Assembly (NCBI GenBank): GCA_028693335.1
Contig: JAQUVR010000002.1
Span: 1-20,096, forward strand
Source of the DNA: Candidatus Iainarchaeum sp.
GTDB lineage: Archaea; Iainarchaeota; Iainarchaeia; Iainarchaeales; CSSED10-239
Reading direction: 5' to 3'
Length of the DNA: 20,096 bases
Shown here: piece after piece, positions 218 to 12,049 of the stretch
Layout: each line of letters begins with the position of its first letter
How positions within the stretch are numbered: position 1 is the stretch's first letter
Notes under the pieces: model-generated
What the model was told of the DNA's origin: nothing
The model's database searches: none
Seen by the model: the letters and a program-made list of their open reading frames with translations, nothing else
Position numbers and translations under genes: made by a program

Positions 218-910
218 ATGAAAATTGATACTTATTACAAATTCATAGCATCCACTTTTGGAATTGCATATTTTGTTGGATTAGTAATTGGTATATTATT
301 AACTATTGGTGGAACAGATGTTGCGCCAGAAACAAATATAACAAATTCTTTTTTTTTACAAAGTACAGTTAATTTTAGAGCACTTTTTATAGAAACCATT
401 AATTTATCATTTACTCAAGCAGCAATTCCATTTACCTATTTAATTGTAAGTGTAAAATATGGCTTGAATCATGCATTTTTATTAACAAGTCCATTCCTTG
501 GACAAATTAAATTATTTGTTCAATTAATACCACAAGTGTTTTATTTTATTTCTTTTATATTATTTGCAACAATTGGATTAAAACTAATAATTTACTTAAT
601 AGTAAAATTAGCAAATTTAGTTTTTGAAAAAACAAAAAGAAATATTTTTTTAAAATTAAATCCTTTTAACAAAAATGACCCCCTATTTTTATATCTGGCA
701 CTATTGTTTATTATTACTGGTGTCTTTATACAGATATTTTTAAGCAAAATATTCTTTATTTTTTTAATTAATTTTCAATTAGTTTCATATGTTTTTATTA
801 TAATATTATATATCTTATTAATAACCACAAGTCTATATTTAGTATACTCAACAATAAAATCAGCACTTGAGGAAATAAAAAACATTTATAAAAAAATAAT
901 ATTTAAATGA
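218..910 (+). CDS. Polytopic integral membrane protein of unrecognised family (about 6 hydrophobic segments)
   Basis: A 230-aa ORF with several long hydrophobic stretches (FGIAYFVGLVIGILLTIGG, FYFISFILFATIGLKLIIYLIV, LFLYLALLFIITGVFIQIFL, VSYVFIIILYILLITTSLYLV). Its stop TGA (908-910) overlaps the ATG (907) of the next gene as ATGA. Confidence 0.6.
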   Translation: MKIDTYYKFIASTFGIAYFVGLVIGILLTIGGTDVAPETNITNSFFLQSTVNFRALFIETINLSFTQAAIPFTYLIVSVKYGLNHAFLLTSPFLGQIKLFVQLIPQVFYFISFILFATIGLKLIIYLIVKLANLVFEKTKRNIFLKLNPFNKNDPLFLYLALLFIITGVFIQIFLSKIFFIFLINFQLVSYVFIIILYILLITTSLYLVYSTIKSALEEIKNIYKKIIFK

Positions 911-3435
911 TAATTATGGATAAAAGCTTTAATTTTGATACAGAAGACATAGTTTTGGGAAGAGTTTCAAGTCAACAAAAAAAATATGGAAACAAAGCAA
1001 CTGGATATATAGGAAAAGTTGTAGTTTCTAGTGGTGATGAACCAGTTCTTGGAAAAAAAATATTAATGGATCTAGCAAGATCTCATGTAGCTATTGTTTG
1101 CGGAAAAAGGGGCGGTGGAAAATGCCTAACTGGCGATACCTTAATAACTATAGAGGATGGTAGAGAAATACCAATCAAAGATTTAGACAAAAACAAGACA
1201 CCAGTATTATCTTTACAAAGTAATTTTAAAATAAAATCAACTAATAAAGATCAATTTTTTAAAAGAGAAGTAAATAAGATTTTAGAAGTTAAATTAAGAA
1301 CAGGAAAAATAATAAAATTAACACCAGAACATCCCTTATTAACCATTTCAGGATGGAAAGAAGTAAAAGATCTTAAAAAAGGAAGCAGAATAGCAACACC
1401 AAGAAACACACCTTTTTTTGGAAAAACAAAAATTAGAGATTGCGAAATAAAATTACTGGCATATTTGATTGCAGAAGGCCATTTAGGTAATGGCTTTGTG
1501 CTATTTTCTAATACTGATGAAAAAATAATAATAGATTTTAAAAAAGCAATTGGAGATTTTGATAAAACACTAAAAATCTTAGATCACGGACATAAAACAT
1601 TAAGGATTAGCAAATCAAAAATTGGAAAAGAGAAAAATCCACTTAAAGAATATCTTAAAAATTTATATTTATATGATGTAAGATCAGAAACAAAATTTAT
1701 TCCAGAAATTATTTTTAAATTGCCAAAAAAACAATTATCTTTATTTCTAAACAGATTATTCAGCTGTGATGGAACTATATACTTTGATAAAAATAAAAAA
1801 GAATGGGAAATTTCTTATTCATCTTCATCTCAAAAATTAATATTACAAGTTCAAAGTTTGCTTTTAAGATTTGGATTAATTTCTGTAATTAGAACAAAAA
1901 AAACAAAGAAACTGCCAAATTATGAATTAAAAATATTAACCAGTAAAAATATAGATTTTATAAAAGAAATTGGTTTTTTTGGAAAAAAAGAATTATTACA
2001 AAAAAAAGTAACTACAAAAAAAAGTAATCCAAATATTGACACAATTCCAAAAGAGATCTGGGATATTTACAGACCAAAAAGTTGGTCAGCAATTGGCAAA
2101 GAAATAGGATACAAAAATCCAAAATCTCTTAGAAATTCAATAAATTACTCTCCTTCTAGAGAAAAATTATTAAAAATTGCAACCATCGAAAAAAACAATG
2201 AATTAAAAAAAATTGCAACTAGCGATATATTTTGGGATGAAATTATTGAAATTAAGGAAATTAATAAAAAAGAAACTGTCTATGATATAACTGTTCCAAA
2301 CACACATAATTTTATTGCTAATAATATTATTGTTCACAATAGTTATACAATGTCAGTATTAATAGAAGAATTTTGTAGACAACCATTTGAAATAAAAGAA
2401 AGACTATCTGTTCTAATAATTGATACTGTTGGAATTTTTTGGACAATGAAATATCCTAATAAAGAAGACCCAGAATTATTAAAAAAATGGGATCTTTCTC
2501 CAGAAGGATTAGATATTAGAAATCTTGTGCCACTTGGTAAAAAAGATTTTTATGTTGATAAAAAATTACCTCATGATGGTTACTTTACAATAAAAACATC
2601 ACAAATGGATACAGAAGACTGGCTTGGTGTTTTTAGATTGACATGGAGAGATCCAGAAAGTTCTTTACTTTCAAGAACATTAGAAACTATTAGACAGAAA
2701 GTTGGTAACTTATATGATATTGATGATATAATAAATATTTCTCAAAAAGATCTAGACTCTAACAAAGAAACAAAAAATTCTTTAATGAATAGATTGTTAG
2801 TTGCAAAATCATGGGGTTTGTTTTCAAAAACAGGAACAACTATGAAAGAGTTTGCAGCTCCAGGGACAATTACTGTTATTGATGTTAGTACTTATAAACA
2901 ATCTATTGGAATGGAATCCATACATGAACTAATTGTTGGAATTTTAGGTAAAAGATTGTATGAAGAGCGTATGCTTTATAGAAAAGAAGAAGAAATGAAT
3001 CTATTATCTGGTAAAAGAAAAGAAAGTGAAATGCCAATTATCTGGATGATGATTGATGAAGCACACATGTTTATGCCATCAGACAGACCATCAATGGCAT
3101 TAGATGTTCTACTTCAATGGATAAGGGTTGGAAGACAACCTGGATTGTCATTACTTTTAGCAACACAGCGTCCAAATAAGTTACATAGCGAAGCAATTTC
3201 ACAATGTGATTTCTTTTTGAGCATGAGAATGACTGCTCAAGATGATATTCTTGCAGTAAGTTCAATAAGACCAAGCTATTTAAATGTACCAATGGATAAA
3301 TTTTATGCGCAGATGCCAAGAGATCAAGGTTATGCTATAGTTGTAGATGATAATTCAGAAAAAGTTATGTTAGTAAAAATAAGACCAAGACTTACTTGGG
3401 ATGGTGGAAAAACAGCTAATGTTTTTGTTGATTAA
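907..3435 (+). CDS. HerA/FtsK-superfamily (DUF87-like) P-loop ATPase, intein-containing precursor (842 aa; 436 aa after splicing)
   Basis: Walker A GKRGGGK|S is interrupted after the Lys and restored by splicing to GKRGGGKSYTMSVLIEE. Walker B is IIWMMIDEAH (DEAH at nt 3055-3066). LLLATQRPNKL and the C-terminal KIRPRLTWDGGKT are typical of HerA/DUF87-type ATPases. Confidence 0.85.
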   Translation: MIIMDKSFNFDTEDIVLGRVSSQQKKYGNKATGYIGKVVVSSGDEPVLGKKILMDLARSHVAIVCGKRGGGKCLTGDTLITIEDGREIPIKDLDKNKTPVLSLQSNFKIKSTNKDQFFKREVNKILEVKLRTGKIIKLTPEHPLLTISGWKEVKDLKKGSRIATPRNTPFFGKTKIRDCEIKLLAYLIAEGHLGNGFVLFSNTDEKIIIDFKKAIGDFDKTLKILDHGHKTLRISKSKIGKEKNPLKEYLKNLYLYDVRSETKFIPEIIFKLPKKQLSLFLNRLFSCDGTIYFDKNKKEWEISYSSSSQKLILQVQSLLLRFGLISVIRTKKTKKLPNYELKILTSKNIDFIKEIGFFGKKELLQKKVTTKKSNPNIDTIPKEIWDIYRPKSWSAIGKEIGYKNPKSLRNSINYSPSREKLLKIATIEKNNELKKIATSDIFWDEIIEIKEINKKETVYDITVPNTHNFIANNIIVHNSYTMSVLIEEFCRQPFEIKERLSVLIIDTVGIFWTMKYPNKEDPELLKKWDLSPEGLDIRNLVPLGKKDFYVDKKLPHDGYFTIKTSQMDTEDWLGVFRLTWRDPESSLLSRTLETIRQKVGNLYDIDDIINISQKDLDSNKETKNSLMNRLLVAKSWGLFSKTGTTMKEFAAPGTITVIDVSTYKQSIGMESIHELIVGILGKRLYEERMLYRKEEEMNLLSGKRKESEMPIIWMMIDEAHMFMPSDRPSMALDVLLQWIRVGRQPGLSLLLATQRPNKLHSEAISQCDFFLSMRMTAQDDILAVSSIRPSYLNVPMDKFYAQMPRDQGYAIVVDDNSEKVMLVKIRPRLTWDGGKTANVFVD
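1123..2340 (+). mobile_element. Full-length intein (406 aa) with a LAGLIDADG homing-endonuclease domain, inserted in the Walker A motif
   Basis: The intein starts at Cys (TGC 1123-1125) in CLTGDTLITIEDG (block A). Block B is KLTPEHPLL (TxxH). The two LAGLIDADG motifs are LLAYLIAEGHL and LFLNRLFSCDGTI, each keeping its acidic residue. Block F is VYDITVPNTHNF. Block G is NNIIVHN, ending at nt 2340 and followed by the +1 Ser (AGT 2341-2343). Confidence 0.85.
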
Positions 3436-3436
3436 T

Positions 3437-3730
3437 TTAAGATAAATGTTCTCTTACAATATCCTTTATTTCATTTCTTATTTGGACACCTGCTTTTACA
3501 TCTGTAAAATTATTTTTTTCAGAAACTACTGAATAACCATCACTTACTAGTAAGTGTTTTCTATCACCAATAGTATAGCAACCAGGAGTTATGTGTCCAT
3601 CTTGAAATAAAACAAAATTATCTATTTTTTTTAAATTTAAGGTCATCAACAATTTATATGTTGCGTTCATAGTAGTGCCATAATGCATACAATTATCTAA
3701 TACTAAAACAGGATCAGATCTCTCTGTCAT
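3437..3730 (-). CDS. Phosphoribosyltransferase-like protein; this is the ATG-delimited minimum, and the frame stays open upstream to 3934
   Basis: PVLVLDNCMHYGTTMNATYKLL resembles the PRPP-binding loop of type I PRTases (hydrophobic strand, two polar/acidic residues, then xxTGxT). The in-frame upstream 68 codons (..NIIILDKSARAIYIGILEYYRIKYPNEKPPRIYFLNP..) have no stop and look like the N-terminal half of the same fold, but they contain no ATG/GTG/TTG. Confidence 0.55.
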   Translation of the reverse strand: MTERSDPVLVLDNCMHYGTTMNATYKLLMTLNLKKIDNFVLFQDGHITPGCYTIGDRKHLLVSDGYSVVSEKNNFTDVKAGVQIRNEIKDIVREHLS

Positions 3731-4856: not shown

Positions 4857-5198
4857 TCACAAATATTTAATAAATTTGTTATTTTTATCAACTAGTATGT
4901 TTTTTGAAGAAATTGGGGTTTGACTTAATTCAAAACCCATAATTATTATTTCTTCCCCTCTTTTAATCAAATGAGCAGAAGCACCATTCATACAAATATC
5001 TCCAGAATCTTTTTTTCCAGAAATAACATATGTTTCAAGTCTGTTTCCAGTAGTGTTACTTACAACAAGAACTTTTTCACCATCTAATAACCCAACTAGA
5101 TCCATTAATGTCTTATCAATTGTTATTGAACCAACATAATCTATATTTGCATCAGTTACAGTTGCTTTGTGTATCTTTGATCTTAAAAATTCTCTCAT
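4857..5198 (-). CDS. panD: Aspartate 1-decarboxylase, pyruvoyl-dependent (bacterial PanD type)
   Basis: MREFLRSKIHKATVTDANIDYVGSITID aligns with E. coli PanD (..[22 protein letters not shown]..), including the Gly-Ser self-cleavage site. NGASAHL corresponds to NGAAAH. The length of 113 aa is typical. Confidence 0.85.
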   Translation of the reverse strand: MREFLRSKIHKATVTDANIDYVGSITIDKTLMDLVGLLDGEKVLVVSNTTGNRLETYVISGKKDSGDICMNGASAHLIKRGEEIIIMGFELSQTPISSKNILVDKNNKFIKYL

Positions 5199-5200
5199 AA

Positions 5201-6103
5201 TTAACCCTTAATTTCTAAATAACAATAATATGCAGCAATTGCTCCTTGACTAGAAGCAGTAATAACCTGTTTTAGATCTGTTTTGTTTGTTGCATCTCCT
5301 GCAGCAAATATTCCAGAAATATTTGTTTTTTGACTCTTATCTACAACAATAAAACTATTTTTATCCAATAAAACATCTAATTTAGATAATAAATCAGTAT
5401 TTGGAACAGAGCCTATTTCAATAAATAAACCATCAAGAGAAATATTTTTATCATTGTTTGTGATTATCCCAGTTAATCTTTCAGAACCCAAAAGTTCAGT
5501 AACTTCTGTATTGTACAAAATTTCAATTTTTGAATTATTAATTGCTAAATCAATCCAAACTTTTTCTGCTCTTAATTGTTCTTTTCTATAGATAATGTAT
5601 ACTTTATTTGCTATCTCAGAAAGCATAATTGCAGCAGTAACAGCCGCATCAGAGCCACCAATAACAGCAACAATTTTATCCTTATAAAAACCAGCATCAC
5701 AGGTTGCACAATAACTAACACCTTTTCCAGTAAATTCTTCTTCTCTAGGCAAACCTAATTTTCTTCTAGCTCTACCTATTGCTAAAATTATTTTTTTTGC
5801 TTTTATAGTTCTTTGATCTGTATTTATAATAAAATCATTTTCTTTTTGTATATCAATAGTTTTTTCAAAAACAATATCAACATTAAGATTTGTTGCTTGA
5901 TCAATCATTTTTAAAGAAAGATCCATACCAGTAATTTCATTAAACCCAGGATAATTACAGATTTTGTGTGCTGTTGACATCATTCCTCCAAAAGAATCAG
6001 AAATTACAACAGTAGTTAATCCATATCTTTTGCCATAAATTGCAGCGGTTAGTCCTGCTGGACCACCACCTATTATTGCCAGATCATAAATATTTTCATT
6101 CAT
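5201..6103 (-). CDS. trxB: Thioredoxin-disulfide reductase
   Basis: FAD-binding motif IIGGGPAGLTAAIY, redox-active CATC within SYCATCDAGFY, a second dinucleotide fold VIGGSDAAVTAAIML, and C-terminal FAAGDAT. The length of 300 aa is typical of low-molecular-weight TrxR. Confidence 0.9.
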   Translation of the reverse strand: MNENIYDLAIIGGGPAGLTAAIYGKRYGLTTVVISDSFGGMMSTAHKICNYPGFNEITGMDLSLKMIDQATNLNVDIVFEKTIDIQKENDFIINTDQRTIKAKKIILAIGRARRKLGLPREEEFTGKGVSYCATCDAGFYKDKIVAVIGGSDAAVTAAIMLSEIANKVYIIYRKEQLRAEKVWIDLAINNSKIEILYNTEVTELLGSERLTGIITNNDKNISLDGLFIEIGSVPNTDLLSKLDVLLDKNSFIVVDKSQKTNISGIFAAGDATNKTDLKQVITASSQGAIAAYYCYLEIKG

Positions 6104-6519
6104 TTTTTCTTCCCTTTATTAATTAATATATCTTCAAATAATTTATTATAGTCTCTTTTCTTTGGTTTTAAACCAAGAGATTTTTCCATTGATTCAAAAC
6201 CGTATTTTATGGTTTCAGGGCTTATTTCCATTGTTGGAATTCTATTTTCCTCTAAAGCATCCAGAAATTCTCTATATGTTATTCCTGCAATCTTTGCACC
6301 ACCAGCAATATTAACTTCTTTGTTTTCATAGGCTCTTAAGGCCACACCAAGTCTATATTCTTTAAGCCCTTTTTCAATTAACTTCCTTAAAAAATCAGAC
6401 TCTGTTAGATTTTCTTCCTTTGCAATATTATAAGCCATAGTGGCCATTGAGTCAGTTAATCTTAAAGTTTTTACTTTTTTTATTTCATAATTGCAATTTT
6501 TTTTTCCCATAAATTTCAC
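6100..6519 (-). CDS. Ribbon-helix-helix + UPF0175-family antitoxin-like protein
   Basis: The N-terminus TLRLTDSMATMAYNIAKEENLTESDFLRKLIEKGL has an RHH/CopG-like pattern. It is followed by LGVALRAYENKEVNIAGGAKIAGITYREFLDALEENRIP, the UPF0175 pattern. The ORF-track start is GTG 6519. ATG 6510, preceded by GGTGA, is the more likely start. The stop overlaps the trxB ATG (ATGA at 6100-6103). Confidence 0.6.
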   Translation of the reverse strand: MKFMGKKNCNYEIKKVKTLRLTDSMATMAYNIAKEENLTESDFLRKLIEKGLKEYRLGVALRAYENKEVNIAGGAKIAGITYREFLDALEENRIPTMEISPETIKYGFESMEKSLGLKPKKRDYNKLFEDILINKGKKK

Positions 6520-7044
6520 CTATTTATTTAATAACATCTTTCTACCAATCTCAATATATTTTAATTTCATAGATTTTGATTTTTCTAAAATATTCAATTT
6601 ATTTAATACTTCTTCTTTTGTTAGTTTATTGTCTTCCACTAACTTTAAAGAAAAATCAATATTGTTTGCAACTAAGATATTATTTATTTTACAGAAATCA
6701 TAAGGAATTCCATTATCTATAAAAACAATTATCTTTTCTTCTTTTGCAAGCGCTATACTATATAGTTCTCCAGAATCACTAGTAATCTGAGAATTAATCT
6801 CTTTTGGTATTGCTTTTGGATCTTTAATTTTAATAATTTCTTTTGATTTTAAATCTGTATAAATTTCTAAATCTAAAGGAGTGTATAATTTTATTCTAAC
6901 AAAAGCTTGTAATTCTTCTTCAACTTTTCTTGTAATAACAATATTCCAAAGCTCTATAAACTCTTCAACTAAGTTAAGTTTTACTAAATGTATCCAAAAG
7001 GAAGTATCTATAACAGCTTTTGGTTTTGCTTTTGCCAGTACCAT
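6520..7044 (-). CDS. PIN-like nuclease domain protein (DUF3368-like), a putative toxin partner of UPF0175
   Basis: KAVIDTSFWIHLVKLNLVEEFIELWNIVITRKVEEEL matches the DUF3368/PIN_3 N-terminal pattern (xxDTSxLIxLxxxxxLxLL...V.iP..V..E). SGELYSIALAKEEKIIVFIDNGIPYDF corresponds to the GEaeaIaLA...lliDd segment. Confidence 0.55.
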   Translation of the reverse strand: MVLAKAKPKAVIDTSFWIHLVKLNLVEEFIELWNIVITRKVEEELQAFVRIKLYTPLDLEIYTDLKSKEIIKIKDPKAIPKEINSQITSDSGELYSIALAKEEKIIVFIDNGIPYDFCKINNILVANNIDFSLKLVEDNKLTKEEVLNKLNILEKSKSMKLKYIEIGRKMLLNK

Positions 7045-9439: not shown

Positions 9440-10873
9440 TCACTGTTTTAAGAAAACATTACTGCTTGTAAGTGTTGGTCTTAACAATAATCTTAATGGA
9501 TCTCTATCCGGATATCTTATAACAACATCATTACCAGAAATTACTTCAATATGAACTTTTGCTAAATTGTCAAAATTTTCAATAAAATCTGAAAGATATT
9601 CTGAGCTTATTACATAATTTAGTTTTGGATTTTCAACTAATATTTTTAAAACATCATTACCAACAAACAAACTATTAATTGTTTCTTTTGATTCTGGTAT
9701 TGCTACTAAAACGTCTTCTTTTATTATATTTTCAATCTCTTTTATTACTGAGTAAATATAATAAACACAAAATGGATCGTCCAGATTTATTCTTAAAATC
9801 CTACAAGAACCGATCTGACTATAAGAATCTTCAAAAAGCATAGAACAGTCTGTTTTTCCAAAATAGGTTGCATATTTTTTTTCTATAATATTTAATTTAT
9901 TAAAAACCCTTTTTTTTTCAAACTCAGTAATATCATCATCAGTTTCTAATGAAACCATTTTTTCTCTGAGATCTGCAATTGTTAAAAGATCATTGGAGTA
10001 TATTTTTTCTATTATTTTCTCAGAAATTGATGTTAAATGAAATATACTACAAAACGCTTTTTTAGGAACAACAGATAAAGGCATCTTAATTTTAAAATAA
10101 TCTACAGACTTAGATGGAAAACCAAAAGGAGCAATCTTTATATCAAAATTAAAAAGAATATCTTCATGTTGCTGTGGATAAGATAGACTTTTAAAAACGC
10201 CTGTGCTATCAAAAACAAGAACTTTTTTACCAGATAACAAATAATTTTCACAAACTAATTTAACAGAATATAATCTATCATCCAGTTCTGAACCAGTAAC
10301 TAAAACAGATCTTAATGTTTCTATATTTCCAGTTATCGTAACATCATTTTTTTTTCCAATAATCAATTTATTTACTGTAGAATTTTCTAAAAAATTAATG
10401 TTTTTTGTTGGAAAATTTGTAATTGTTTTAATAATAAACGGATCTGAAAAAAATATGCTTCTTTGATCTTCTGATAACATTTTTAATGAAACTAATTTTA
10501 TATTATATGACTTAATTACAGAAATTATTGAACTAGTTTGTTTATTTAATTGAGCAATTTTTTTTTCAATATAGCTTGTAAATGCCATATTATCAATTAA
10601 TTCTGTTTCTGTATTAATTAATAAAAATTTATGAGTATTCTTTTCACCAAGATCTAAATGCTTTTGATAAAAAATACATTGGTTTGGTAAAGTTTCAACA
10701 AATAGTTCTAATTCACCATAAGCTAAAAAAACTTTATAAACTTGAATTAACAATGAATCTTGATGTCTAGATCTTAAAAAAGATACAAAATAGTCATCAT
10801 TGTAAAGAATAGATAATTCTTGATCACCATATTTTCCTTCAAATATAGTTTCCCATGCACTTAATGATAACAT
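9440..10873 (-). CDS. Degenerate (predicted catalytically inactive) paralog of the HerA/DUF87-like ATPase at 907..3435
   Basis: VLVTGSELDDRLYSVKLVCENYLLSGKKVLVFDSTGVFKSLSYP aligns with VAIVCGKRGGGKSYTMSVLIEEFCRQ..LSVLIIDTVGIFWTMKYP. Walker A is replaced by GSELDDRL (nt 10271-10294). Walker B IDEAH is replaced by IPESK. ATQRP is replaced by VISSEY. The C-terminal LLLRPTLTSS matches KIRPRLTWDG. Confidence 0.65.
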   Translation of the reverse strand: MLSLSAWETIFEGKYGDQELSILYNDDYFVSFLRSRHQDSLLIQVYKVFLAYGELELFVETLPNQCIFYQKHLDLGEKNTHKFLLINTETELIDNMAFTSYIEKKIAQLNKQTSSIISVIKSYNIKLVSLKMLSEDQRSIFFSDPFIIKTITNFPTKNINFLENSTVNKLIIGKKNDVTITGNIETLRSVLVTGSELDDRLYSVKLVCENYLLSGKKVLVFDSTGVFKSLSYPQQHEDILFNFDIKIAPFGFPSKSVDYFKIKMPLSVVPKKAFCSIFHLTSISEKIIEKIYSNDLLTIADLREKMVSLETDDDITEFEKKRVFNKLNIIEKKYATYFGKTDCSMLFEDSYSQIGSCRILRINLDDPFCVYYIYSVIKEIENIIKEDVLVAIPESKETINSLFVGNDVLKILVENPKLNYVISSEYLSDFIENFDNLAKVHIEVISGNDVVIRYPDRDPLRLLLRPTLTSSNVFLKQ

Positions 10874-10987
10874 ATTTTTCTTAATTTTTGTTTTTTGTGA
10901 TTTTATCTATATTTATGATTAAATCAAAATGTTTATAATGTTTATATTGTAATATTTATATTATATATATTAAAAAGGTTATTAAAG

Positions 10988-11461
10988 ATGATAGACGAAA
11001 AATTAATAAAAGATACAATTACAGAGCTTTTAAGTGCAAATGTTGATAAAGACACAATTTATTCTACTTTAAAAGATATTGGAGTAGAACTTGGAGAAAT
11101 TGAAAAATACTACACAGAAGTAACAACATCTCAAAATAAAAAAACAGAACCAATAATCGAAGAAAAAAAACCGGTTTTAGAAAAACCAAAAAGTACAGCA
11201 GATCTAGATATTGAAAAACAAGAAACTGATCTAAAAGAAACTGAAAAAGAAGTTGCAGAAATTAATAATAATTTTGAAATACCAAAACCAACTACCAAAA
11301 TAACTGATTCTATAACTGCTCCAGACAACGATCAATTCCTAAAACAAATCTCTGAATTACAGGACCAGGTTGGTGACATAAAAGCACAAATTAATGCATT
11401 AACAAAAATCATGAAAGATATTTTAGAGGAAAATAGAAATATTTTAAACAAACTAAAATAA
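10988..11461 (+). CDS. Acidic hypothetical protein with a C-terminal coiled coil
   Basis: A 157-aa ORF with a small helical N-terminal domain, a low-complexity E/K/T linker and the heptad-like LKQISELQDQVGDIKAQINALTKIMKDILEEN. I recognise no family. Confidence 0.55.
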   Translation: MIDEKLIKDTITELLSANVDKDTIYSTLKDIGVELGEIEKYYTEVTTSQNKKTEPIIEEKKPVLEKPKSTADLDIEKQETDLKETEKEVAEINNNFEIPKPTTKITDSITAPDNDQFLKQISELQDQVGDIKAQINALTKIMKDILEENRNILNKLK

Positions 11462-11462
11462 A

Positions 11463-11774
11463 TTAATATCCCCCGCCACCCAATAACTTGGCAAGATCTT
11501 CATAATTTGCATTAGAATTGCTTTTTTTATTTTTAAATAATGATCTGATAAATATTACTGCAAATAAAACTAAAAGCACTAATATCCAAAAAACATTTAT
11601 TGTTCCGTCTTTTATAAATATTAATACTGCAAATAAAAGAACGAATAAAAAATTAGATTTGCTTGGTGCAAAAATAGAATAAACTAAAATAATTCCTGCA
11701 GAAAAAATATCATAATTGTATTGGTAACTTAAAATCATTAAAACAACAACAACAAAAAAACTAATGAAATCCAT
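11463..11774 (-). CDS. Small membrane protein (3 hydrophobic segments)
   Basis: A 103-aa ORF with hydrophobic segments and a polar tail ending LLGGGGY. It lies downstream of rpl15e on the same strand. Confidence 0.5.
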   Translation of the reverse strand: MDFISFFVVVVLMILSYQYNYDIFSAGIILVYSIFAPSKSNFLFVLLFAVLIFIKDGTINVFWILVLLVLFAVIFIRSLFKNKKSNSNANYEDLAKLLGGGGY

Positions 11775-11794: not shown

Positions 11795-12049
11795 CTATTT
11801 CTTAAATAGGCTTTTACCTATTGCCTCTTTAAGTTTTGAGCCAAAAAACCAATAAATCAATATACCAAAAGTAAATAACCAAATTAAATCTGGAAATTGA
11901 TAAAATAACAAAAACATTACAAAAATAGTTATTAATACTGCAACTGTTGCATTACCGATTTGTTTTTTATTATAAACATAAATAGCAACTGCAAAGAATA
12001 TAAACAGAATAATCCACAAACTATCTTGTAAAGAGATTGCTAAAAACAT
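11795..12049 (-). CDS. Small membrane protein (3 hydrophobic segments)
   Basis: An 84-aa ORF with three hydrophobic stretches. It lies on the same strand between rpl15e and the previous ORF. Confidence 0.5.
   Translation of the reverse strand: MFLAISLQDSLWIILFIFFAVAIYVYNKKQIGNATVAVLITIFVMFLLFYQFPDLIWLFTFGILIYWFFGSKLKEAIGKSLFKK

What the first reader, a model, noticed from the sequence alone, without database searches (positions are those of the whole stretch)
9440..10873. Catalytically dead paralog of the intein-bearing ATPase: a possible pseudo-ATPase partner
The 477-aa protein is clearly homologous to the 907..3435 extein. VLVFDSTGVFKSLSYP aligns with VLIIDTVGIFWTMKYP, and LLLRPTLT with KIRPRLTW. 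Every nucleotide-handling motif is nevertheless replaced: GKRGGGKS becomes GSELDDRL, IDEAH becomes IPESK, and ATQRP becomes VISSEY. A long intact ORF in DNA this AT-rich argues that it is maintained and is not a pseudogene. By inference it could form mixed rings with the active ATPase or regulate it. Such an active/inactive pairing has not, to my knowledge, been described for this ATPase family.
Basis: partly seen in the sequence, partly recalled or inferred. Interest (0 to 1): 0.7.

Follow-up and report, generated by a model that had tools for sequence, protein, structure and literature searches.

The report
Conserved dead HerA-like ATPase in DPANN archaea
The gene encodes a well-conserved, catalytically dead relative of HerA/FtsK ring ATPases, found across a group of tiny DPANN archaea, whose constant genomic companion is a small adaptor-like protein and not the active ATPase nearby.

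Summary
ORF 9440-10873(-) encodes a 477-aa protein whose C-terminal ~300 residues have the HerA/VirB4/FtsK fold. An AF2 model (pLDDT 83.6) matches S. solfataricus HerA at Foldseek E=1.6e-12. The family profile aligns with the intein-bearing ATPase family at hhalign 96% probability, E=1.5e-9, over 267 columns.

Walker A, Walker B and the TQR sensor/arginine motif are all replaced, and this is true family-wide. None of 127 diverse homologs has even a relaxed Walker A, and only 1 has a Walker B. The gene is under purifying selection (dN/dS 0.10, against 0.06 for the active ATPase).

The family has no Pfam or NCBIfam model. It comprises about 180 clusters at 50% identity, labelled Iainarchaeota/Diapherotrites with a few Micrarchaeota labels. 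It carries its own 160-aa N-terminal domain, which is not a HAS barrel.

The "partner of the active ATPase" idea is not supported by linkage. Only 5 of 80 active-ATPase loci, all close relatives, have the dead gene within 10 kb. The arginine positions that such rings normally donate to a neighbouring subunit are lost.

The dead ATPase is instead divergently paired with a small helical-domain/acidic-linker/C-terminal-helix protein in 15 of 16 loci. Small membrane proteins are also adjacent, and often a coiled-coil gene and PolB. My best reading is a non-enzymatic scaffold acting with that adaptor. This is a new variant of a known kind, of moderate interest.

The parts
9440..10873 (-). Pseudo-ATPase gene, 477 aa. 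It consists of a family-specific N-terminal alpha/beta domain and a degenerate HerA/FtsK-type P-loop domain.
   Evidence: ORF. 41 close homologs and 180 clusters at 50% identity. AF2 model plus Foldseek match to HerA at E=1.6e-12. hhalign to the active family at E=1.5e-9. dN/dS 0.098.
10388..10873 (-). N-terminal domain, aa 1-162: a four-stranded meander, a helix, three strands, then a long helix spanning aa 95-120.
   Evidence: AF2 on the domain alone: pLDDT 90, pTM 0.85. Foldseek against PDB gives no hit below E=1e-3. The best hits are weak: 3cxj, YbjN and T3SS-chaperone-like proteins, with TM at most 0.38. No HerA or HAS-barrel hit appears. Conserved residues include GPW (aa 5-7), G53 and P145.
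10271..10294 (-). Degenerate Walker A position, aa 194-201 (GSELDDRL).
   Evidence: It aligns with GKRGGGKS of the active ATPase. R200 sits at the Walker lysine position (102/127). It is preceded by D/E/Q and followed by K/L/I, never S/T. 0 of 127 members fit [AG]x4G[KR][ST]. In the model the helix begins at aa 197, leaving a loop of only 2 residues after strand 189-194, with pLDDT about 94.
9689..9712 (-). Degenerate Walker B position, aa 388-395 (VLVAIPES).
   Evidence: It aligns with WMMIDEAH. The Asp position is Pro in 67/127 members and the Glu position is variable. 1 of 127 members has hhhhD[DE].
9593..9622 (-). Degenerate sensor/arginine strand, aa 418-427 (LNYVISSEYL).
   Evidence: It aligns with LLLATQRPNK. 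The position equivalent to R349 is H/S/N/K/D, and Arg in only 10/127 members.
9467..9493 (-). Conserved C-terminal strand, aa 461-469 (RLLLRPTLT).
   Evidence: R461 is present in 119/127, R465 in 126/127, P466 in 114/127 and S/T469 in 125/127. The active family conserves K-I-R-P-R-x-S-W at its C-terminus.
10874..10987 (.). Intergenic region of 114 nt between the divergent genes. It is presumed to hold both promoters.
   Evidence: The divergent arrangement is conserved in 15/16 loci, with spacers of about 26-170 nt. The promoters themselves were not tested.
10988..11461 (+). Conserved divergent partner, 157 aa. It has an N-terminal helical domain of about 45 aa, a variable acidic linker, and a conserved C-terminal helix (...ALTKIMKDILEENRNILNKLK).
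   Evidence: Alignments A4 and A7. The HMM finds it next to the pseudo-ATPase in 15 of 16 independent loci. dN/dS 0.24. The N-terminal domain matches only designed three-helix miniproteins in PDB.
11463..11774 (-). Small membrane protein, 103 aa, about 3 hydrophobic segments.
   Evidence: Hydropathy. It holds the same position in 5 further independent loci, all close relatives: L001, L003, L010, L012 and L017.
11795..12049 (-). Small membrane protein, 84 aa, about 3 hydrophobic segments. It belongs to a family that recurs in the small-membrane-protein arrays beside the pseudo-ATPase.
   Evidence: Hydropathy. Iterated HMM hits adjacent to the module in 10 independent loci, including distant L007, L008, L009 and L091.
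907..3435 (+). Active HerA-like ATPase, listed here as the comparison gene. The extein is 436 aa, interrupted after GKRGGGK by a 406-aa LAGLIDADG intein.
   Evidence: Pfam Intein_splicing, LAGLIDADG_3 and DUF87. NCBIfam and PADLOC HerA models, partial. PDB HerA sequences at E=9e-12. 410 genomic relatives.

Best explanation
The gene encodes a stand-alone pseudo-ATPase. It has a HerA/FtsK-fold P-loop domain that lost Walker A, Walker B and the sensor/arginine motif before the family diversified, fused to a family-specific N-terminal domain of about 160 aa.

Shown:
- The fold, and the homology to the co-resident HerA-like ATPase.
- Family-wide motif loss.
- Purifying selection.
- A distribution in DPANN archaea labelled Iainarchaeota/Diapherotrites, with a few records labelled Micrarchaeota.
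- A deeply conserved divergent gene pair with a small protein built as helical domain, acidic linker and C-terminal helix, next to small membrane proteins.

Inferred:
- It does not hydrolyse ATP and probably does not bind it. The P-loop is predicted to be replaced by an extra helical turn carrying acidic residues next to an Arg at the former lysine position.
- It works as a non-enzymatic structural or adaptor subunit, possibly still oligomeric.
- Its direct partner is the divergently encoded small protein, most plausibly through that protein's invariant C-terminal helix. This may tether it to the adjacent small membrane proteins.
- It is a housekeeping component. It is not a defence or mobile-element gene, and it is not a dedicated subunit of the intein-bearing ATPase.
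For: Fold:
- AF2 model pLDDT 83.6.
- Foldseek matches HerA 4d2i at E=1.6e-12, followed by VirB4, TrwB and FtsK.

Homology:
- hhalign A3 vs A2: 96.3% probability, E=1.5e-9.
- BLASTP E=3e-4.
- P0163 gives a weak Pfam DUF87 hit.

Motif loss:
- 0/127 members have a Walker A and 1/127 a Walker B. The arginine positions are not conserved.
- The model has a 2-residue loop where the 8-residue P-loop should be.

Selection:
- dN/dS is 0.098. For comparison, the active ATPase gives 0.06, TrxR 0.20 and TFIIB 0.02.
- There are 50 invariant columns among 35 orthologs.

Partner:
- It is present and divergent in 15/16 independent loci whose pseudo-ATPases are only 17-30% identical.

Membrane neighbours:
- Arrays of 2-7 small multi-TM proteins lie upstream.
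- One of these families recurs in 10 loci.

Housekeeping context:
- L15e and TFIIB flank it in the window. PolB lies downstream in 7 distant loci.
- There are no PADLOC hits.
Against: - No physical interaction was tested. Gene adjacency is the only evidence for the partner and for the membrane link.
- Nucleotide binding without hydrolysis is not excluded. G194 and a basic residue at the lysine position are retained.
- The oligomeric state is unknown.
- One locus (L090) lacks the partner next to the gene.
- Neighbours such as PolB and TFIIB could reflect plain synteny in small genomes.
Confidence: 0.55

Rival explanations
1. The dead paralog assembles into mixed rings with the intein-bearing HerA-like ATPase, or binds it, and so modulates its activity.
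For: - The two families are homologous.
- Both occur in the same genomes wherever both could be seen: the window, L001, L010, L012 and L015-L017.
- Both appear characteristic of the same archaeal group.
- Active/inactive combinations exist in this superfamily, for example EssC D1-D3 (PMC9436818).
- E209/E81 and the C-terminal R-P strand are conserved in both families.
Against: - There is no conserved linkage. Only 5 of 80 active-ATPase loci have the dead gene within 10 kb, and those are the closest relatives.
- Identity is about 15% in the aligned core, and the N-terminal regions are unrelated (55 aa against about 165 aa), so ring interfaces are unlikely to be shared.
- No conserved arginine remains at the GRQPG/TQRP positions that would complete a neighbour's active site.
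- The dead gene has its own conserved partner.
- In close relatives the active ATPase is co-transcribed with a different partner, a 230-aa membrane protein.
Confidence: 0.15
2. The protein is a nucleotide-binding but non-hydrolysing switch or sensor. The remodelled site (G194...R200) would still bind ATP/ADP or another anion and control assembly, as in non-catalytic subunits of other ring ATPases.
For: - G194 (96/127) and R200 (102/127) are conserved at the first Gly and the Lys positions of Walker A, and E209 is invariant.
- Arg can replace Lys in a functional Walker A of this superfamily, as in EssC D2 (PMC9436818).
Against: - No member has the G-[KR]-[ST] core.
- The residue before R200 is usually acidic (D/E in 57/127), and the Mg-ligand Ser/Thr is absent.
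- The Walker B aspartate is Pro in most members.
- The model places a helix where the phosphate-binding loop should be.
Confidence: 0.12
3. The ORF is a decaying pseudogene or a sequencing/assembly artefact of an active ATPase gene.
For: None beyond the missing motifs.
Against: - The ORF is intact over 477 codons in DNA of 25% GC.
- Full-length orthologs occur in about 180 clusters, all lacking the motifs.
- dN/dS is 0.10.
- The model is confident.
Confidence: 0.01

Closest known systems
Archaeal and bacterial HerA hexameric translocases (for example S. solfataricus HerA, PDB 4d2i; Sir2-HerA and DUF4297-HerA defence complexes)
   Same: It is the best structural match for the C-terminal domain (E=1.6e-12 to 1e-8). 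The layout is similar: an N-terminal domain followed by a RecA-like core with a helical insertion.
   Different: - Walker A, Walker B and the arginine/sensor motifs are all absent.
- No HerA Pfam or NCBIfam model is matched.
- The N-terminal domain shows no HAS-barrel match.
- There is no NurA/Mre11/Rad50 or Sir2/nuclease neighbour.
- There are no PADLOC hits.
The co-resident 431-436-aa HerA-like (DUF87) ATPase family of the same archaea (window 907-3435)
   Same: It is the only family detectable by sequence (hhalign E=1.5e-9). The two share the E209/E81 helix, the hhhhD-x-x-G-x-F strand after it, and the C-terminal R-P strand.
   Different: - That family is active: all motifs are invariant.
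- It has a short N-terminus and often carries a P-loop intein.
- Its gene contexts are different and variable.
- It is linked to the dead gene only in close relatives.
Degenerate ATPase domains of T7SS EssC/EccC (FtsK/SpoIIIE branch of the same superfamily)
   Same: This is a precedent for a non-canonical domain retained for assembly or substrate binding. EssC D3 lacks canonical Walker A/B motifs and has no distinguishable R-finger (PMC9436818).
   Different: There the degenerate domains are fused in cis to active ones within a membrane-anchored protein of a secretion system. Here the dead domain is a separate gene with its own N-terminal domain and partner. No WXG100 or other T7SS genes were seen.
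VirB4/TrwK and CedB-type ATPases of membrane DNA/protein transfer machines
   Same: VirB4/TrwK is the second-best structural match (E about 1e-9). As in those systems, the gene sits next to several small membrane proteins. The comparison with VirB3 and CedA1/A2 rests on my own knowledge.
   Different: Those ATPases are catalytically active signature enzymes, often on mobile elements. Here no active ATPase lies in the cluster, the context is housekeeping and vertically conserved, and no homology of the small membrane proteins to VirB or Ced components was found (weak TcpD hit only).

Membership tests
FtsK-HerA superfamily (fold level) | RecA/ASCE-type core structurally similar to HerA, VirB4, TrwB and FtsK | tested here: met
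   In the Foldseek PDB search the top 50 hits are all from this superfamily, with 68 hits at E<=1e-3 and the best at 1.6e-12. hhalign to a bona fide member family gives E=1.5e-9.
FtsK-HerA superfamily (as an ATPase) | Walker A [A/G]xxxxG[K/R][S/T] (definition as in PMC9436818) | tested here: not met
   The window protein has GSELDDRL. 0 of 127 family representatives match at the aligned site.
FtsK-HerA superfamily (as an ATPase) | Walker B hhhhD[E/D] | tested here: not met
   The window protein has VLVAIPES. 1 of 127 match. The Asp position is Pro in 67/127.
FtsK-HerA superfamily (as an ATPase) | Conserved arginine(s) and polar sensor in the GR..G / TQR region that complete the neighbouring active site | tested here: not met
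   R334, R337, Q348 and R349 are invariant in the active family. The aligned positions in the dead family are variable, and the R349 equivalent is Arg in only 10/127. Which arginine is the true finger was not established here.
FtsK-HerA superfamily | Ring (hexamer) assembly | not testable with these tools
   Only single-chain prediction was available.
Canonical HerA (DSB-repair or defence helicase) | Match to curated HerA/DUF87 models above threshold | tested here: not met
   There is no Pfam, NCBIfam or PADLOC hit for the window protein. A distant member, P0163, gives DUF87 at E=0.006, below the cut-off.
Canonical HerA | N-terminal HAS-barrel domain | tested here: not met
   The N-terminal domain model (pLDDT 90) gives no HerA or HAS-barrel hit. 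The best PDB hits are weak and YbjN/chaperone-like, at E>=6e-3.
Canonical HerA | Operon with NurA (and Mre11/Rad50) or with a defence effector | tested here: not met
   None was called (Pfam) in the 11 contexts with gene calls or in the window.
Paralog/partner of the intein-bearing ATPase family | Significant specific sequence similarity | tested here: met
   hhalign 96.3%, E=1.5e-9. HMM cross-hits at 4e-8.
Paralog/partner of the intein-bearing ATPase family | Conserved genomic linkage or co-transcription | tested here: not met
   5 of 80 loci, all close relatives. The two genes are on opposite strands and 6 kb apart in the window.
Paralog/partner of the intein-bearing ATPase family | Genome-wide co-occurrence | tested here: inconclusive
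   Both genes are seen together in 7 genomes of one clade. Whole genomes could not be scanned for the distant members.

The most novel reading that the evidence does not exclude
The pseudo-ATPase, its divergently encoded adaptor and the adjacent small membrane proteins form a previously undescribed machine in Iainarchaeota-type DPANN archaea. In this reading it is a nucleotide-independent HerA-fold platform anchored at the membrane. It would be linked to DNA handling, such as replication, segregation or DNA transfer, as hinted by the deeply conserved coiled-coil and PolB neighbours.
Probability: 0.15. Interest if true: 0.75.

Novelty: new variant of a known kind. Interest (0 to 1): 0.45.

Why it matters
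Ring ATPases of the HerA/FtsK superfamily drive DNA repair, chromosome segregation, conjugation, secretion and anti-phage defence. A separately encoded member that lost every catalytic motif, yet has been kept under strong selection across a whole DPANN lineage, shows the fold being reused as a non-enzymatic part.

It also gives an unannotated "hypothetical protein" family a structural identity and a testable partner. For genome-reduced DPANN archaea, where most conserved hypothetical genes are opaque, the conserved module (small membrane proteins, adaptor, dead ATPase, often a coiled-coil gene and PolB) is a concrete target for understanding their cell biology.

It does not overturn anything known. 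Degenerate P-loop domains are a familiar theme.

Tried and rejected
- Pfam, NCBIfam, PADLOC and PDB sequence searches (single sequence and profile) on the 477-aa protein gave nothing meaningful.
- The third word-indexed homolog search, with the broad profile A3, added only one new protein.
The dead family's distribution in named genomes could therefore not be scanned directly.
- I tested whether the 465-aa gene beside the partner in L005 is another HerA-like protein. It is not.
- I tested whether the coiled-coil gene found between the pseudo-ATPase and PolB in distant loci exists in the window or in close relatives. It was not found.
- I looked for a conserved operon around the active ATPase in AR10 and another complete genome. 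The neighbours are variable (CbiM, DsbA-like, GT2, ArsR-type HTH), with no NurA/Mre11/Rad50.
- The 230-aa gene upstream of the active ATPase is a membrane protein confined to 17 close loci.
- The defence-island and mobile-element readings were rejected: the context is housekeeping and there are no PADLOC hits.
- The pseudogene and artefact readings were rejected.
- Literature searches for a described dead HerA paralog in DPANN or Diapherotrites found nothing.
Full report
**Context.** The window is an AT-rich archaeal contig of about 25% GC. It carries TFIIB, L15e, L35Ae, Nop5 and fibrillarin genes. The target protein is recorded in NCBI as a hypothetical protein of a "Candidatus ainarchaeum sp." MAG, that is, a DPANN archaeon of the Iainarchaeota/Diapherotrites.

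**Observation.** ORF 9440-10873(-) is intact, starts with ATG and encodes 477 aa. At this base composition stop codons make up roughly 9% of random triplets, so an open run of this length is not a chance event (hand calculation).

The gene 907-3435(+) encodes a HerA/DUF87-type ATPase interrupted by a LAGLIDADG intein directly after GKRGGGK. The spliced extein is 436 aa. It matches HerA models from NCBIfam, PADLOC and PDB over its C-terminal half.

**Homology between the two proteins.**
- Pairwise BLASTP gives E=3e-4 and 23% identity over 229 aa. It aligns GSELDDRL with GKRGGGKS, and VLVFDSTGVFKSLSYP with VLIIDTVGIFWTMKYP.
- A profile of 35 close orthologs against a profile of the active family gives 74.6% probability, E=2.6e-5.
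- A 70-sequence profile spanning the whole family gives 96.3%, E=1.5e-9 over 267 columns. It puts Walker A, Walker B (IDEAH/IPESK) and the sensor strand (ATQRP/ISSEY) in register.
- An HMM of the dead family also picks up active ATPases at 4e-8 to 6e-6 in a local database.
- Independently, an AF2 model (pLDDT 83.6, pTM 0.66) matches S. solfataricus HerA (4d2i) at E=1.6e-12. VirB4/TrwK, Sir2-HerA, DndH, TrwB and FtsK follow.

The C-terminal pairing LLLRPTLT/KIRPRLTW is plausible but lies outside the significant alignment.

**The motif loss is ancient and family-wide.** An exhaustive HMM search of 1.84 billion cluster representatives found 180 clusters at E<=1e-3. Nearly all are 470-520 aa and matched end to end.

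In a 127-sequence alignment:
- None has even the relaxed Walker A [AG]x4G[KR][ST].
- Only one has hhhhD[DE] at the Walker B site.
- The position of the Walker lysine is an Arg in 102/127. It is usually preceded by Asp/Glu and never followed by Ser/Thr.
- The Walker B Asp is Pro in 67/127.
- The position matching the invariant R349 of the active family is Arg in only 10/127.

The model shows strand 189-194 followed after two residues by helix 197-213. The eight-residue phosphate-binding loop is thus replaced by an extra helical turn, at pLDDT about 94.

What is conserved instead is W7, G173, E209 (127/127; it aligns with the invariant E81 of the active family), D222, the P-x-G-F-P motif at 249-253, G355, and R461/R465-P466 in the last strand.

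**Selection.** Against the closest relative in hand (L010, 86% aa identity) the gene has dN=0.083, dS=0.85 and dN/dS=0.098. Over the same genome pair the values for other genes are:

| Gene | dN/dS |
|---|---|
| Active extein | 0.06 |
| Thioredoxin reductase | 0.20 |
| TFIIB | 0.02 |
| Putative toxin-antitoxin pair nearby | 0.57-0.70 |

The gene is maintained like a housekeeping gene.

**Architecture.** Residues 1-162, modelled alone, give pLDDT 90 and pTM 0.85. They have no PDB match below E=1e-3. The best hits are weak (3cxj, YbjN, T3SS-chaperone-like proteins; TM<=0.38), and there is no HerA or HAS-barrel hit. The active ATPase has only about 55 residues before its P-loop strand. The two proteins therefore share only the core domain.

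**Distribution.** Members that carry names are labelled Iainarchaeum/Diapherotrites, and two are labelled Micrarchaeota. The active family has 410 relatives among GTDB species genomes. The best 80 are almost all Iainarchaeum or unclassified "archaeon" MAGs, and they include three complete genomes.

**Testing the proposed partnership.** In the window the two genes lie 6 kb apart on opposite strands.
- Among the 80 active-ATPase loci with up to 10 kb of flank, only 5 contain the dead gene. These are the closest relatives, with ATPases 79-92% identical.
- Conversely, in 9 contexts of more distant dead-family members (L003, L005-L009, L090-L092) no DUF87 ATPase is nearby.
- In close relatives the active ATPase is translationally coupled to a 230-aa polytopic membrane protein (218-910). 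In distant genomes it has variable neighbours.
- The dead family also lacks conserved arginines at the GRQPG/TQRP positions, which in this superfamily are where a neighbouring subunit's site is completed. The general principle is as summarised in PMC9436818. Which residue is the finger here is my inference.

Linkage and sequence thus give no support for mixed rings. Co-occurrence in the same genomes is real, with 7 genomes seen, so mixed rings are not excluded.

**What is conserved next to it.** Immediately upstream and divergent lies a 157-aa gene (10988-11461). Its homologs occupy the same divergent position in 15 of 16 independent loci, although the pseudo-ATPases there are only 17-30% identical. 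The exception is L090.

The partner has three parts:
- a conserved helical domain of about 45 aa, which matches only designed three-helix miniproteins in PDB;
- an acidic linker of very variable length;
- a strongly conserved C-terminal helix (consensus ...AL..I.k.ILEtNR.iL.rLk).

On the far side of the partner lie small multi-pass membrane proteins. There are two in the window (11463-11774 and 11795-12049), and arrays of five to seven, preceded by a very large surface-type protein, in the distant loci L007 and L008. The 84-aa family recurs in 10 independent loci.

Downstream, seven distant loci have a convergent coiled-coil gene of 115-155 aa followed by family-B DNA polymerase. The window's clade has TFIIB there instead.

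**Interpretation.** The most economical reading is a non-enzymatic HerA-fold subunit that acts together with the divergently encoded adaptor, probably close to the membrane, as a conserved housekeeping module of these archaea. The fold, the inactivation, the selection and the gene pairing are shown. Physical interaction, oligomeric state, membrane tethering and any link to PolB are inferred.

The rivals are:
- mixed rings with, or regulation of, the active ATPase (about 0.15);
- a non-hydrolysing nucleotide-binding switch (about 0.12);
- a pseudogene or artefact (refuted).

**Comparison with known systems.** It works most like the degenerate FtsK-type domains of T7SS EssC/EccC, which are retained for assembly or substrate binding (PMC9436818). 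Here, however, the dead domain is a separate gene with a new N-terminal domain. It is a structural member of the FtsK-HerA superfamily, but it fails every catalytic membership criterion and the criteria for canonical HerA. No paper describing this family, or a dead HerA paralog in DPANN, was found.

**Verdict.** This is a new variant of a known kind. Interest is moderate (0.45): the dead ATPase itself is not very surprising, but the deeply conserved module around it is an unexplored piece of DPANN biology.

Noticed in passing
window 1123-2340 (within 907-3435); L015-L026: The active ATPase carries a 406-aa LAGLIDADG intein inserted exactly after the Walker A lysine (GKRGGGK|C...HN|S). At least 12 other genomes have their match split at the same residue (matches start at residue 73), so the same site is probably occupied there too. 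The closest relative, L010, lacks the intein.
   Followed up: partly
window 218-910 (+): A 230-aa polytopic membrane protein with no Pfam or NCBIfam match overlaps the start of the active ATPase by 4 nt. It is conserved upstream of the ATPase only in 17 close-relative loci. More distant genomes have unrelated soluble proteins of about 160 aa there.
   Followed up: partly
window 6100-6519 (-) and 6520-7044 (-): This is an adjacent pair resembling a toxin-antitoxin module: UPF0175 family at E=2e-6, plus a weak PIN_4 hit. Its dN/dS against L010 is much higher (0.57 and 0.70) than for the surrounding genes.
   Followed up: no
L005 11762-16278; L006-L009, L091, L092 (equivalent positions): A conserved coiled-coil protein of 115-155 aa (C-terminal motif KY(I/V)(V/L)ETINPLEFVT) lies convergent to the pseudo-ATPase and directly upstream of family-B DNA polymerase in seven distant loci. 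It is absent from the window and from close relatives. In L005 the PolB itself carries inteins.
   Followed up: partly
L007 739-9399; L008 71-5141; L009 2857-4915; L091 2018-4575: Arrays of five to seven small 2-5-TM proteins sit beside the adaptor/pseudo-ATPase pair, preceded in L007 and L008 by a protein of 957-1892 aa (weak SpaA/CarboxypepD_reg hits in L007 only). In L009 and L092, type IV pilus genes (T2SSE/T2SSF) lie 6-8 kb downstream.
   Followed up: partly
L033, L057, L084, L087: Contigs carrying the Iainarchaeota-type active ATPase (54-60% identity) are deposited under Micrarchaeota, Falkowbacteria, Thaumarchaeota and Chloroflexi MAG labels. This probably reflects mis-binning or mislabelling, and it is relevant to the two 'Micrarchaeota' labels seen for the dead family.
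   Followed up: no
window 4857-5198 (-) and 3437-3730 (-): The aspartate decarboxylase (PanD) gene and a 97-aa ORF have no counterpart in the closest relative's syntenic stretch (L010). This indicates local gene-content differences within an otherwise collinear region.
   Followed up: no
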